Source: Leucoraja ocellata (taxonomy: Eukaryota). From it: 64,000 nt of DNA. The position numbers and the translations under genes were made by a program. Numbering within the stretch: the first letter of the stretch is position 1; each line of letters starts with the position of its first letter. The stretch lies in assembly GCA_036785375.1 (NCBI GenBank), contig JAWMAR010000034.1, positions 7,316,001-7,380,000 on the forward strand, written 5' to 3'. The notes under the pieces are model-generated. The model saw only the letters and a list, made by a program, of their open reading frames with translations. It had not been told where the DNA came from and searched no databases. Below are positions 3,412 through 52,600 of the stretch, piece after piece.

Positions 3412-4090
3412 CCGAAGATAGACACAAAAAGCTGGAGTACTTCAGCGGGACAGGCAGCATCTCTGGAAAGAAGGAATGGGTGATGTTTCGGGTCGAGCCC
3501 CTTCTTCAGACTGGTTAGGGATAAGGGAAACGAGAGATATAGACGGTGATGTGGAGAGATAACAAGATGTGGACTCTTATACATCGGCGAGACCAAACGC
3601 AGACTGGGCGATTGTTTCGCGGAACACCTTTGCTCACCCCTCGTGAACCAACCTGATCTCCCGGTTGTTGGACACTTTAATTCTCCTTCCAATTCCTACA
3701 TTGACCTTTCTGTCCTCGGTCTCCTCCATTGTCAGTGAGGCTAAACGCAAATTGGAGGAACAGCAGCTTACAACCCAGTGGTATGAATATGAATTCTCTC
3801 ACTTCGGGTAGCCCCGGCATTCCCTTTCTCTCCATCCCTCCCCCACCCAAATCGCACTAGCTTCCCATTTTCACCCTACAAACAGCTTACAATGGCCTAT
3901 TTTTTTTATCATCATTACTTTTTTGCATATCTTTCATTCATTGTTCTTTATCTCTCCACATCACTGACTATATCTCTCGCTTCCCTTATCCCTAACCAGT
4001 CTGAAACGTCTCGACCCGAAACGCCACCCATTCCTTCTCTCCAGAGATGCTGCCTGTTCCGTTGAATTACTCCAGCTTTTTGTGTCTATC
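3412..4090 (+). mobile_element. Penelope-like element, 5'-truncated, with GIY-YIG endonuclease remnant and an inverted terminal repeat
   Basis: From 3565 reads RCGLLYIGETKRRLGDCFAEHL..PVVGHFNSPS..DLSVLGLLHCQ. 3412-3560 is the reverse complement of the 3' end at about 3945-4090. Confidence 0.85.
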
Positions 4091-4109
4091 TATGATAAAC
4101 GTGATATCC

Positions 4110-49600: not shown

Positions 49601-52600
49601 GATGAGCAACGGATAGTGCTTCCAAAAAGAGTTGTAAAGGTGAATGGGGGATAGCAATAAATTATTATTTCCAGTCTAAGTTATTAAATTCTTCTCTCTG
49701 ATATATTTTGTTGTTGCTCAGAGAGTTTAGTGACGTGCAGTGTTTAGAGTTCACACCGATCGGTCGCATATTCACACTAGCTCCATGTTATCCCACTTTC
49801 AAATCCACTCCCTACTCATCAGGTACAACTTACAGAGGCCAATTAACTTACAAACCCACAACTCTTTAGAATGCGAGACTTTAGTTTAGTTTATTGTCAC
49901 GTGTACTGTGAAACATACGGTGAATAGCTTTTGCTGCGTGCTATCCAGTCAGCAGAATGACAATACATAATTACAATCGAGCCATTTACAGTGTATAGAT
50001 ACATGATAAAGGAATAAAGTTTAGTGCAAGGTAAAGCCAGCAAAGCCCCATCAAGGATAGACCAAGAGTCACCAAAGAGATAGATAGTAGTTCAGCACTG
50101 CTCTCTGTTTGTGTTGGGATGATTCAGTTGCCTGATAACAGCTGGGAAGAAACTGTCCCTGAATCTGGAGGTGTGCGTTTTCACACTTCTATATCCTTTG
50201 CCTGATGGGAGAGGGGCGAAAAGGGAGTGGCCAGGGTTCAACTCGTCCTTGATTATGCTGCTGGCCTTGCCGTGGAAACCGGAGCAACTGGAAAACCCCA
50301 CGCTGTCAAAGGGAGAACATGCAAACTCCACACGGACAGCACCCGAGGTCAGGATTAATTCCGGGTCTCCAGCGCTGGGAGACAGCAGCTCTACCACCTG
50401 CACCACTGCCGCTCTGTGGGGCTGTTTTGAAACACTTGATAATCGCAGCTGAACATAATATGGTACAAATCATAACCCTTGCAGCAATAGATGCTATATT
50501 TATATACTGACCTTATTTAGTTCTCGTTACTTCCTCAACCTCACACACTGACTTCTCTATCCTTGCCTTTTTAGGTTGATCCTATAATATTTAATATAAG
50601 TGTGAGGCAAAGGACCTCATCTTTTGATTAATGTGTTACAGCTTACCTGAATCAACGCTGACAAACAGCTGCTTCTAATGACTCGGCTACTTCCATGTAA
50701 TACATCTCTGGATTCATTTTTGTGTTTTTACTTATTCTCTAACCTCCCCTGTTGGTCTTTCACAAGCATCGCTTTTGTTAATTGTACTATTCACTCTGTC
50801 AGACTTTCGCTTTCATTTCTTAATTTCGCTTCATCTTGCTTCATCGCAAACATTTTTGAGTTTGCGTTGAAAGTTCATCAATCTGATGTATTAATTGTTT
50901 CCCTTTTAATAGTTGTTGACTGATCCGCTGACTCTTTTCAACACTTAGTTTTTAATTCAGTTTTCCAATATCTTGATATTTTAATGTATATAGCTTTGAG
51001 AATTTTTATCAGAGAATAATCAGTGTTTTCTTAATCTTTTAATCTAATATTGGTTATTAATATTCCAATACAACAAAAATTTGCCGTCATTTAATACTGT
51101 TGACATTAATAAAAGGTCAAGTGGTATTATCAAATTTGACAGCTACAGATATTGCTTAAAATGACATGAACATTGGTCAAAATAGTAGGTTTCTAAAGGA
51201 GGAGAGACATGCAAAGGTGGAATGATTCAAAGAGAAAACGTCCAGACTTTAAGGGCCTTGGCAGTGAAAAGTTTGGCTGTCAGTCATGGGGCGACCAAAG
51301 TGACAAATCCACAAGATACCAGAATCGGATACCTGGAATGATCTTGGTTGTTTGTCTATTACAGAAATTGTGCACAAAGATAATAATCATTAAAGAAGAT
51401 AGGCACAAAATGCTGGAGTAACTCAGCGGGTCAGGCAGCAACTCTGGAGAAGACGAATGGGTGACGTTTTGGGTCGAGACCCTTCTTCAGACAGAGCAGC
51501 ATCTGCAGTTCTTTCTTACACATAATAATCATTAACATTGATAATGATGTTTTCTACAGGCTAAATGGTACACAGATGTCTAAACCCCATGTTCACAAGA
51601 AGTCCTATTGTACCTTTATCTGAGGAGAATGATATGCAAAAGAGTTTGCATAAATACTTGTACATGTTTATACAATATCATGCACAATTTTTAAAATACA
51701 AATGTAGCAAGCTAAATTGAGCTTGAATTTTTATAATCTAAATCTTGGAATGTTATTTTGTATTTGGTGTGAGTCCTCATAACATTCATTTGTTATTCCA
51801 TCAGATATAATGCAACAGAATAACAGAACTAAAATCTGAAAGCACACATTTCATGTATTTTACAATTGGTATTCACAAGAACTTAATTCATAAGGCTGCT
51901 ACGTTGGATTTCTCTGTAGTGGCGATAACTGATGAGGGTATAGAAGCTGTTGATAGCAGCAAATTGTTAACTACTTTGGAATTCAGTGGCTATGCCAAGG
52001 CTCGGTGGTTCTACTTATTGATTTAACAGAAATGTCAGAGCAATCAAGTACTTAACTTTTGAACCATGATATTAAAGCTCAGTAATCTTTGTTCATTTGT
52101 TAGAAAGCCTTGAATTTAATGTAGATTACATGAGTTTGTTTTTTTAATAAGGCTAGTATTTGTCACTTTAGTTGTTTATTTATAACCTGTACTATAGTCA
52201 TGTTTCATTATTCATGATAACATCATAATATTTAATAAAGTAGTTTTATTCAGTTTACCTTCAAATAATGCTAAAGTCCTTCTGAATTTAGATGTGATTT
52301 GAGAGCAATATATCTAAAACAAATCTACAGGAACTAAAACTCATTAAATTATCATTTAATATCAGCATTTTTCATAACACATTAGCAATTTATGTTAAAT
52401 ATTCTCCCAACATTAAAAATATTACGATGGAGCACAGAGCATAGAAGAATACTTAATAATCTACTGTTTATTTTTTTACTATTAAGTCAGAGCTCTGAAT
52501 CCCTTAATTTCAAAAATAGTGTCACATCAAGGCAACTCCTATAATAATTAGATATATTTTGCGGCCATGTGAGAGAACAAGACATTGAATCGTACAGCAA

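What the first reader, a model, noticed from the sequence alone, without database searches (positions are those of the whole stretch)
3412..51521. Dense family of Penelope-derived mini-retroelements carrying a minimal hammerhead ribozyme core
Seen in sequence: at least ten copies of a motif with consensus CUGAAGA-A-GGGU(CUCG)ACCC-GAAA-CGUC. Plus-strand copies are at about 4000 (core deleted), 15525, 31406, 34154 and 35426; minus-strand copies are at 3482, 14298, 22995, 38679 and 51463, with fainter ones near 2330 and 6030. Helix II tolerates substitutions while staying paired (GGGUC/GACCC, GGGUU/AACCC, GGGU-UUCG-GCCC, GGGUC/GACCU). The motif lies in the 3' terminal repeat of GIY-YIG-encoding Penelope-like remnants (3565-4090, 38615-39270), on the same strand as the ORF. 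Several copies are stand-alone 95-180 nt inserts with 12-14 bp TSDs (15527, 20837, 34090, 51394). Established: CUGANGA..GAAA..NUH is the hammerhead catalytic core; Penelope-like elements are known to carry minimal hammerheads whose helix III is reduced to a short palindrome (here ACGU) thought to need dimerisation; an extra A after A9 occurs in some natural hammerheads. Inference: this genome carries a very abundant, retrozyme-like population of ribozyme-tagged mini-elements (roughly one per 5-6 kb here), half of them sense to the SIK3 pre-mRNA. Caveat: helix I is at most about 2 bp in these copies, so most are probably inactive.
Basis: partly seen in the sequence, partly recalled or inferred. 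Interest (0 to 1): 0.75.

Follow-up and report, generated by a model that had tools for sequence, protein, structure and literature searches.

The report
Truncated Penelope ends carrying known hammerheads
This stretch of a likely skate or ray genome holds about sixteen broken ends of a known kind of jumping gene (a Penelope-like element), many carrying the small hammerhead-ribozyme motif already described for such elements, mostly damaged and probably inactive, so the finding is real but largely ordinary.

Summary
The motif is real and far above chance. It matches the minimal hammerhead published for Penelope-like elements (PLEs) in 2014, including the extra base after A9 and the two-base palindrome; 2-bp helix I forms are also published. 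The copies are 5'-truncated 3' ends of a Neptune-type PLE at about 16 loci in and upstream of SIK3 exons. Six loci have 9-16 bp target-site duplications. At least six are head-to-head two-arm inserts, several with the 35-bp 'tail' on one arm only, the known PLE anatomy. They are not retrozymes: no tandem units in the window, no shared ends, 1 of 24 arms starts at the cut site, and RNA reads of two relatives show no pile-up there. Only 4 of 12 copies keep a complete core, none of them with a 2-bp helix I. Helix II covariation is not significant. One point goes beyond the papers I found: 15 of 24 arms stop at the hammerhead, 8 just before its core, at an initiator-like motif. This suggests the element's RNA begins there (untested).

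The parts
3408..3562 (-). Inverted 5'-truncated terminal-repeat arm (positions -52 to about +103; +1 = first C of CUGA), hammerhead at 3509-3482, helix II 3 of 4 pairs, helix III pair lost
3565..3811 (+). C-terminal remnant of the PLE ORF (GIY-YIG endonuclease, broken by stop, frameshift and deletion), 75% identical to a Leucoraja PLE-derived protein
3812..4091 (+). 3' untranslated part and terminal repeat, hammerhead with deleted core at 4001-4025, arm ends at +94 (no tail)
2282..2405 (.). Old, decayed, probably two-arm insert: + arm from about 2320, weak - arm from about 2327; junction inside the core
   Evidence: the - arm is weak: model E 0.05, arm-to-arm score reached by 53 of 200 random pairs
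4195..4907 (+). Older long remnant: linker/endonuclease-like part, ORF end, and 3' end with tail; hammerhead not recognisable
5960..6090 (-). Old copy with complete core and 4-bp helix II (6044-6016), no helix I; weak partner arm on + from 6054
8189..8275 (+). Old 3' end with tail, starts at about +38, no hammerhead
14218..14409 (.). Two-arm insert: - arm -2..+108 (core mutated at A6) and + arm starting at 14335/14336, within a base of the predicted cut site, to +101
15527..15619 (+). Single-arm insert 0..+95, complete core and helix II, helix I 1 bp, 12-bp duplication (15515-15526, 15620-15631)
18847..18918 (+). Single arm +22..+93, no core
20837..21018 (.). Two-arm insert: - arm +16..+87 and + arm +19..+130 with tail; both stop in helix II; duplication 20823-20838 / 21018-21033
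22893..23089 (-). Arm -59..+130 with tail, complete core and helix II, helix I 1 bp; abuts a Tc1-like fragment
31396..31530 (+). Older-subfamily single arm about -9..+130, complete core and helix II, no helix I, 13-bp duplication (31383-31395, 31531-31543)
34090..34248 (.). Two-arm insert: inverted tail arm (+91..+130, 34132-34090), 18-bp duplicated fold-back junction, + arm 0..+96 with broken helix II; 14-bp exact duplication
35310..35558 (.). Older-subfamily two-arm insert: - arm from 35417 (core mutated at G8) and + arm from 35426 with tail; both arms begin at the core
   Evidence: arm-to-arm score 83, 0 of 200 random pairs
38613..39273 (-). Long older arm: endonuclease remnant, ORF end, 3' part (interrupted by another repeat at about 39004-39100), hammerhead at 38706 with GAAG for GAAA, ends at +90; 9-bp duplication
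51394..51521 (.). Two-arm insert: - arm -1..+96 (G12 lost at a CpG) and tail arm on + (51493-51521); 14-bp exact duplication
61197..61280 (-).
16542..16670 (+). SIK3 kinase-domain exon (host gene; further exons near 17460-17570, 31101-31235, 33880, 39750, 59400-60290)

Best explanation
These are dead, 5'-truncated 3' ends of a Penelope-like retrotransposon (likely of the Neptune type), each likely inserted on its own, and the hammerhead motif is the passenger that such elements carry in their terminal repeat. Shown here: the copies are pieces of one terminal-repeat module joined to a GIY-YIG ORF end; they are flanked by AT-rich 9-16 bp duplications; their 3' ends fall mostly at two points about 35 bases apart (+87..+96 and +130); many are head-to-head pairs of arms; most arms stop at the hammerhead. 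Inferred, from the Anolis PLE work (PMC11167929): the element's protein nicks both target strands about 12-14 bp apart and primes reverse transcription at either of two start sites in the RNA, the stretch between them being the 'tail'. When both nicks prime, the two short cDNAs are joined head to head, often at short matches supplied by the hammerhead's own repeats. Since many copies keep the core upstream of the cut site, the template was uncut RNA. The hammerhead would cleave only as a dimer and with protein help. In 7 of 11 copies a competing fold is predicted to lock the core against the bases just after the cut site. The single genomic copies are therefore likely inert and reach RNA only by read-through of host genes.
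For: Motif identical in layout to the published consensus (CUGANGAH, G-C base of helix II, GAAAN, palindrome, NUH; PMC4209133 supplement Fig. S3). ORF remnant hits skate and shark PLE proteins, 15 of 25 candidates; relatives P0003 and P0011 score on Pfam GIY-YIG and P0011 weakly on RT, with a CxxxxCxxC linker. Duplications at 6 of 12 loci tested. 3' ends of the 16 well-aligned arms: 8 at +87..+96, 5 at +130, 3 at +101..+108. All 3 young two-arm inserts with clean duplications have one end of each class. Inverted truncated arm plus a tail at one end is the described PLE anatomy (PMC8557442, PMC3846280). 105,753 contig records of a near-identical genome (share 1.00 on a SIK3 exon) lay on the 533-bp element stretch, mostly on its hammerhead-to-3' part. 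Poly(A) reads of a relative cover that part equally on both strands (4978 vs 5097) and no pile-up of ends was listed at the cut site. Competing fold; same pairing in the minimum-energy folds.
Against: No full-length element or RT domain is in the window, and no whole genome was held, so that every short copy came from the autonomous RNA and not from a short non-autonomous master is not shown. One arm (14335/14336) does start at the cut site. A few contigs join the 3' end back to the hammerhead start or to 4030, four bases past the cut (1-7 contigs per joint), so some tandem units exist. The RNA runs are from two other species, read at about 3% and 6%, made by fragmentation, and a few active loci would be hidden by read-through. 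Clade placement rests on the linker motif in relatives, not on a tree. The two long two-arm inserts at 3408 and 14218 end at +103/+94 and +108/+101, not cleanly in the two classes.
Confidence: 0.82

Rival explanations
1. Refinement of the best explanation: the short copies are not random truncations but run-off products. The element's RNA begins at an initiator-like YCANWCT just before the hammerhead core; reverse transcription primed in the 5' terminal repeat of that RNA reaches the RNA's 5' end after 95-135 bases and inserts a solo repeat that starts at the hammerhead.
For: 15 of 24 arms end in -10..+30, 2 in the 60 bases below, although all long arms pass that zone (binomial P 2e-5; P 0.003 for any 41-base window under constant stop rate); 8 of 24 end in -10..+1 (P 0.015 for any 12-base window) (with the 16 cleanest arms 10 vs 0). 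The four arms that carry element sequence upstream all fit YYANWYY (consensus recalled) in the same register, one of them without the AG of a splice site. Loose-end consensus in all four runs keeps TCAGT before the core while the sequence further up differs. In vitro, Anolis PLE starts internally in the repeat at the 5' end of its ORF (PMC11167929).
Against: Zone chosen after seeing the data; ends of the 8 old arms are approximate; paired arms are not independent. 7 of the 15 stop inside the hammerhead, not before it. In Drosophila virilis the RNA starts about 120 bases upstream of this point and an intron ends here (PMC2377424, PMC4209133). No pile-up of RNA starts was listed at 3998-4001. 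Pausing at the hammerhead region or joining by short matches explains clustering as well.
Confidence: 0.35
2. One reading: a retrozyme-like non-autonomous family that is transcribed, self-cleaves, circularises and is re-inserted by the PLE enzyme.
For: Very high copy number of the hammerhead-to-3' module; rare head-to-tail joints in contigs; retrozymes are proposed to arise from PLE terminal repeats and were found in the one cartilaginous fish sampled (bioRxiv 10.64898/2026.07.22.740005); one arm starts at the cut site.
Against: No tandem of the unit in the window; all junctions differ; circular templates would give permuted or more-than-unit copies and none is seen; 4 of 12 complete cores, none with a 2-bp helix I; helix II probability at most 0.01 in 9 of 11 copies; no RNA end pile-up.
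Confidence: 0.08
3. The conserved bases before the core are a 3' splice site, as in Drosophila Penelope, with the 5' splice site at the ORF stop codon (GT at 3808-3809); the motif block is kept partly for splicing or as promoter DNA, and cleavage may have been lost in the young skate subfamily.
For: Pyrimidine run plus CAG directly before the core in 3509, 4001, 31406, 38706; GT kept at 3808-3809 across variants; intron end maps to helix I in D. virilis (PMC4209133); helix I is only 2 bp in the young subfamily.
Against: No joint from about 3807 to 4000 among the 15 joints shown (266 not shown); copy 23022 has CAC; the reading frame that splicing would open has a stop in about half of the copies and a search with it found only unrelated translations of dispersed copies.
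Confidence: 0.2
4. The hammerhead likeness is chance within an ordinary repeat.
For: No Rfam hammerhead hit; covariation not significant (60 and 68 of 500 shuffles as high); no copy folds better than its shuffles.
Against: Exact fit to the published PLE consensus at the expected place in the element; the most diverged copies (6044, 35426) keep both boxes and change both sides of helix II pairs (3 cells).
Confidence: 0.03

Closest known systems
Minimal type I hammerheads (min-HHR) in the terminal repeats of metazoan Penelope-like elements (Cervera and De la Pena 2014, PMC4209133)
   Same: CUGANGA plus one extra base, G-C first pair of helix II, GAAA, two-base palindrome in place of helix III, NUH, position in the terminal repeat on the ORF strand, thousands of single truncated copies per genome.
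   Different: Host is a cartilaginous fish, absent from their list (no hit for shark, Leucoraja or Callorhinchus in the supplement searched). Helix II is 4 bp and helix I 2 bp, the low end of their range (2 bp also in Culex, Drosophila virilis, Oikopleura). A competing pairing of the core with the bases after the cut is predicted.
Endonuclease-bearing PLEs, Neptune type (Craig et al. 2021, PMC8557442; Arkhipova et al. 2013, PMC3846280)
   Same: C-terminal GIY-YIG, CxxxxCxxC linker in relatives, heavy 5' truncation, inverted truncated arm at the 5' end, 30-40 bp tail at one end, 8-16 bp duplications.
   Different: Inserts here are extremely short (93-250 bp for most) and sit in AT-rich unique DNA, not in microsatellites; 5' ends cluster at the hammerhead.
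Poseidon element of Anolis carolinensis in vitro (Frangieh et al. 2024, PMC11167929)
   Same: Two reverse-transcription start points bounding the tail; both strands nicked; AT-rich targets; hammerhead not needed for insertion; no RNA-seq ends at the cut site.
   Different: Other clade. They saw no strand difference in start site; here the three clean two-arm inserts each use one start of each kind.
Non-LTR retrozymes of animals (PMC7229834; bioRxiv 10.64898/2026.07.22.740005)
   Same: Short, non-coding, hammerhead-bearing, related to PLE terminal repeats.
   Different: Retrozymes are tandem units of about 150-450 bp, each with a hammerhead, expressed as circles. None of this is seen in the window.

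Membership tests
PLE minimal hammerhead | CUGANGA box followed by one extra base (H) | tested here: met
   9 of 12 copies keep CUGANGA; extra base A in 8 of them, G in one
PLE minimal hammerhead | Helix II of 4 or more pairs opening with G-C | tested here: met
   97.7% of cells paired over 11 copies; first pair G-C 5, G-U 4, A-U 2; covariation not above shuffles
PLE minimal hammerhead | GAAA, palindromic 15.2/16.2 pair and NUH | tested here: met
   Met in the family pattern; with the other core features complete in 4 of 12 copies: 6044, 15525, 23022, 31406
PLE minimal hammerhead | Helix I of 2-5 pairs | tested here: inconclusive
   2 bp in 4 of 12 copies, 0-1 in the rest; no copy has both a complete core and 2 bp; 54.5% of cells paired
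PLE minimal hammerhead | Lies in the terminal repeat of a PLE, on the ORF strand | tested here: met
   3565-4091 (+) and 39273-38613 (-)
PLE minimal hammerhead | Self-cleavage as a dimer | not testable with these tools
   Needs an in vitro assay; no pile-up of read ends at the site in two RNA runs of relatives, a weak test
Rfam hammerhead families | Score against the Rfam covariance models | tested here: not met
   No hammerhead among 9 matches at E up to 10; those models expect full helices
Endonuclease-bearing PLE (Neptune type) | C-terminal GIY-YIG endonuclease | tested here: met
   Remnant itself has no Pfam hit but is 60-75% identical to 15 proteins; four of them tested, all hit GIY-YIG, one above the curated cut-off
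Endonuclease-bearing PLE (Neptune type) | Telomerase-like RT in the same ORF | tested here: inconclusive
   Not in the window; relative P0011 has a weak RVT_1 hit, E 0.008, ahead of the endonuclease
Endonuclease-bearing PLE (Neptune type) | Cys-rich linker between RT and endonuclease (Neptune, Nematis) | tested here: inconclusive
   Present in relatives P0001, P0009, P0011; only a decayed match in the window at 4195-4356; no tree built to tell Neptune from Nematis
Endonuclease-bearing PLE (Neptune type) | Inverted truncated arm, optional 30-40 bp tail, target-site duplication | tested here: met
   Six clear two-arm inserts (3408, 14218, 20837, 34090, 35310, 51394); tail about 35 bp; duplications at 6 of 12 loci
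Non-LTR retrozyme | Tandem units, two or more in a row with a complete hammerhead | tested here: not met
   None among 10 tandem arrays of the window; rare head-to-tail joints elsewhere in the genome, 1-7 contigs each
Non-LTR retrozyme | Canonical type I hammerhead with 6-bp helix I and loop contacts | tested here: not met
   Helix I at most 2 bp
Non-LTR retrozyme | Abundant circular or unit-length RNA | not testable with these tools
   Only poly(A) and single-cell libraries of relatives could be laid
Non-LTR retrozyme | A unit with shared ends copied as a family | tested here: not met
   5' junctions differ in every insert

The most novel reading that the evidence does not exclude
In cartilaginous fish the Penelope RNA starts a few bases before the hammerhead core, so the ribozyme sits in the capped leader. 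The element's dimeric enzyme primes at both target nicks, one at each of the two start sites that bound the tail, often in the 5' repeat of the RNA, and runs off its 5' end. This would turn out very large numbers of 95-135 bp hammerhead-headed solo repeats and head-to-head pairs, making skate genomes a readable record of the unresolved PLE insertion mechanism and showing that the ribozyme is held uncut during copying by a competing fold.
Probability: 0.3. Interest if true: 0.55.

Novelty: new member of a known kind. Interest (0 to 1): 0.27.

Why it matters
As a ribozyme finding it adds skates or rays to a list published in 2014 and changes little. The value lies in numbers: about one insert per 4 kb here (16 loci, 3,031 bp, 4.7% of the window) with clean duplications. 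How Penelope-like elements insert, why they carry a tail and what their hammerhead is for are open questions. The bimodal 3' ends, the one-of-each rule in two-arm inserts and the 5' ends piled at the hammerhead can all be counted genome-wide with a public skate assembly, and would test the two-nick, two-start model directly.

Tried and rejected
No whole genome was held for this window, so no genome-wide consensus or end histogram could be made. Scans for more copies found nothing: viral contigs, metagenome contigs, genome contigs. Rfam: no hammerhead; the best hits are microRNA models on the 20837 palindrome, far below their thresholds. No indexed run was on record as RNA for the SIK3 exon (no RNA holder listed); two raw RNA runs of relatives were laid instead. 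The 50-fold step in summed contig depth across the hammerhead start (0.2 M at 3980, 10.2 M at 4024) was not used as proof of truncation: other subfamilies have other upstream sequence and the laid copy has a deletion there. The 6-fold strand skew in the single-cell run was set aside as likely oligo-dT priming on the element's T-rich stretch (poly-T loose end at 3919, 1,524 reads). In-frame splicing from the ORF end into the repeat: not supported. Excess conservation of the core (1 of 60 changes vs 41 of 384 downstream, P 0.03, six young copies) was discounted because copies were chosen by their core. A 3' structure (9-bp stem between +46..+54 and the tail, plus a 6-bp hairpin) pairs in 80.6% of cells but shows no covariation above shuffles (181 of 500; my first count was out of register), RNAalifold did not recover it, and no copy folds better than shuffles. 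Three other CTGANGA..GAAA matches (14716, 49822, 60240) are not family members. P0011 has no relative among solved structures. Copy 4001 (core deleted) was left out of the 11-copy alignment and model; 8 old arms were left out and put back.
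Full report
Setting. The window is animal DNA (37.6% G+C) holding exons of SIK3 on the + strand: the exon at 16542-16670 matches SIK3 chains best, E 6e-26, against 2e-18 for the next kinase. I found no earlier kinase exon in the first 16.5 kb by a motif scan, so that part is probably intron. The repeat's protein remnant is closest to Leucoraja erinacea records (74-75%), then to other shark-like records, so the host is likely a skate or ray. No whole genome was held.

Observation. The loose pattern occurs 10 times against 3.25 expected, 0 of 100 shuffles as high. 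A strict descriptor finds 4 copies against 0.01. A model built from 11 copies recovers them, the core-deleted copy at 4001, and two inverted partners, at 35372-35423 (E 0.012) and 2282-2327 (E 0.05). In all there are about 16 insertion loci, one per 4.0 kb, 3,031 bp. Six core-bearing arms are sense to SIK3 and eight antisense. Rfam finds no hammerhead at E up to 10.

The ribozyme motif. Numbering the first C of CUGA as +1, the family reads CUGAAGA, A, GGGU, a 4-base loop, ACCC, GAAA, C, G, U, C, with the cut expected after +28. This is the published consensus for minimal hammerheads of Penelope-like elements (PLEs), NNN CUGANGAH G...C GAAAN palindrome NUH NNN, listed for 40 species including fugu, coelacanth and Xenopus; 2-bp helix I forms are in that list for Culex, Drosophila virilis and Oikopleura (PMC4209133, supplement Fig. 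S3). The same paper reports thousands of single, probably truncated copies per genome, no cleavage of a monomer and weak cleavage of dimers. No shark or skate name was found in the one supplement that could be searched. In the window 4 of 12 copies keep every core feature (6044, 15525, 23022, 31406); their helix I is 0, 1, 1 and 0 bp. The four copies with 2 bp have a broken core or helix. Helix II is paired in 97.7% of cells, but 60 of 500 shuffles reach the overall paired share and 68 of 500 the covariation score; the commonest change is C to T at the CpG that ends helix II, which leaves a G-U pair for free. Changes on both sides of helix II occur only in the two oldest copies, 3 cells. CpG positions change more than others (8 of 36 vs 53 of 528, P 0.045). 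Folding predicts helix II with probability at most 0.01 in 9 of 11 copies; in 7 of 11 its 5' strand pairs with probability above 0.5 with the bases just after the cut site. The motif is thus a true member by sequence and position, and the single copies are probably inert.

The element. The remnant at 3565-3732 reads as the end of a GIY-YIG endonuclease. It hits 15 of 25 candidate proteins. Four were scanned and all hit Pfam GIY-YIG, one above the cut-off; P0011 also has a weak RT hit, and P0001, P0009 and P0011 carry a CxxxxCxxC linker, the mark of Neptune and Nematis PLEs (PMC8557442). Further remnants lie at 4195-4356 and 39230-39153. The hammerhead lies about 190 bases after the ORF stop on the same strand.

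Anatomy of the inserts. Six of 12 loci tested have duplications well above chance: 12, 16 (one mismatch), 13, 14, 9 and 14 bp, all AT-rich. The 3' ends of the 16 well-aligned arms fall at +87..+96 (8), +101..+108 (3) and +130 (5). The 35 bases between the two main classes match the optional PLE 'tail'. Six inserts are head-to-head pairs (3408, 14218, 20837, 34090, 35310, 51394), and 2320 and 6044 may be. In the three young pairs with clean duplications one arm ends at +87..+96 and the other at +130. In two of them the second arm is little more than the tail; in the third both arms reach helix II. An inverted truncated arm with a tail at one end is the described PLE pattern (PMC8557442, PMC3846280). 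Purified Anolis PLE protein nicks both strands at AT-rich sites, starts reverse transcription at two points that bound the tail, is predicted to be a dimer, and inserts equally well with a dead hammerhead (PMC11167929). I infer that each two-arm insert records two cDNAs, one primed at each nick.

Where the arms stop. Of 16 clean arms 10 end between -10 and +30 and none between +31 and +90. With eight older arms added, whose ends are approximate, it is 15 and 2 of 24; 8 end at -10..+1; P is 0.003 for any 41-base window and 0.015 for any 12-base window under a constant stop rate. The zone was chosen after seeing the data. One arm, at 14335/14336, begins within a base of the cut site; the others that reach the hammerhead keep sequence upstream of the cut, so their template was uncut. 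Three causes fit: the RNA begins there; the enzyme pauses there; or the hammerhead's inner repeats supply the short matches that join arms (GGGT/ACCC at 20907; the fold-back at 34132-34168). For the first: the four arms that carry element sequence upstream read CCAGTCT, CCAGTCT, TCACTCT and TCAGTCT across -3..+2, all fitting the initiator pattern YYANWYY (recalled), and loose-end consensus lines in all four runs keep TCAGT before the core. Against it: in D. virilis the RNA starts about 120 bases upstream and an intron ends at this point (PMC2377424; PMC4209133), and three of the four also offer a CAG splice site.

Reads and contigs. On 3563-4095, 105,753 of 20.4 million contig records of run X15 (share 1.00 on the SIK3 exon) and 92,314 of 17.1 million of X18 were laid, most deeply on the hammerhead-to-3' part; this shows great abundance but is no copy number. 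Of 7.3 million poly(A) reads of a relative (X21) 12,665 were laid, evenly on both strands over the repeat (4978 vs 5097 at 4031-4048), as read-through would give. The only place listed where many molecules begin or end was 3571; nothing at the cut site or at the initiator-like motif. No splice joint from the ORF stop to the core was among the 15 joints shown; 266 were not shown. Six head-to-tail joints from 4087-4091 back to 4003-4030 stand in 1-7 contigs each, so a few tandem units exist in these genomes; whether any is a working retrozyme is open.

Comparison. It works like, and by the features testable here is, the minimal hammerhead of a PLE terminal repeat. It is not a retrozyme: those are tandem units of a few hundred bases with a hammerhead in each, expressed as circles (PMC7229834; bioRxiv 10.64898/2026.07.22.740005, which requires two consecutive complete units and notes that most PLE insertions are 5'-truncated with a single repeat). 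The window has no such tandem. I did not find the clustering of 5' ends at the hammerhead, or the one-of-each use of start sites, in eight searches of the open library; subscription papers are not covered. Earlier notes of this scan report the same clustering in shark windows; I saw them, and they are unchecked notes, not support.

What I saw of each paper. PMC4209133: main text parts 1-2 of 4, supplement 2 part 2 of 3 and search passages; supplement 1 could not be searched and may hold further species. PMC11167929: parts 1-2 of 4. PMC2377424: parts 1-3 of 4. bioRxiv 10.64898/2026.07.22.740005: parts 1 and 3 of 5 and passages; its supplementary tables, which name the cartilaginous fish and its retrozyme families, were not seen. 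PMC8557442, PMC3846280, PMC7229834, PMC8455134: passages only. A 2017 paper by Luense and colleagues on PLE hammerheads cleaving as dimers is recalled, not seen.

Verdict. Observation confirmed with corrections; interpretation partly supported; new member of a known kind; interest 0.27. The part worth following is the insertion record, not the ribozyme count.

Noticed in passing
   Followed up: yes
window 20925-21018, 22893-22984, 31440-31530, 35465-35558: The tail holds the 3' strand of a possible 8-9 bp stem with +46..+54, so the inner start point would lie in the loop and the outer one just past the stem; pairing 81% but no covariation.
   Followed up: partly
window 3806-3811, 4582-4588, 39121-39116: The ORF stop is preceded by G in all three long copies, giving a GT that could be a 5' splice site; no spliced read seen among the joints shown.
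   Followed up: partly
window 23073-24728 and 48701-49379: Two related copies (89-91% alike) of a Tc1/mariner-like transposon with 225-bp inverted ends; transposase-like frames on - at 23354-24300 (family named from recall).
   Followed up: no
window 62759-63577: A 272-codon open frame with a weak zf-RVT hit (E 7e-5), followed by a 46-base A run at 63867: likely the 3' end of a young L1/Tx1-type LINE.
   Followed up: no
window 2530-2685, 11994-12099, 27960-28094, 49811-49877, 50305-50377: Several tRNA-derived SINE-like copies (type named from recall).
   Followed up: no
window 5432-5764, 19770-20031, 28986-29282, 34537-34735, 42996-43420, 52617-52950: CR1/L2-like LINE 3' fragments (type named from recall).
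   Followed up: no
window 30282-30501: A perfect 34-bp inverted pair around short internal tandem repeats, possibly a MITE; a similar 55-bp pair at 60838-61181.
   Followed up: no
window 6437-6569: Assembly gap of 133 N.
   Followed up: no
protein P0001: A Leucoraja gene model that joins a DUF4518 domain to a PLE linker and endonuclease, perhaps an exonised or mis-joined copy.
   Followed up: no
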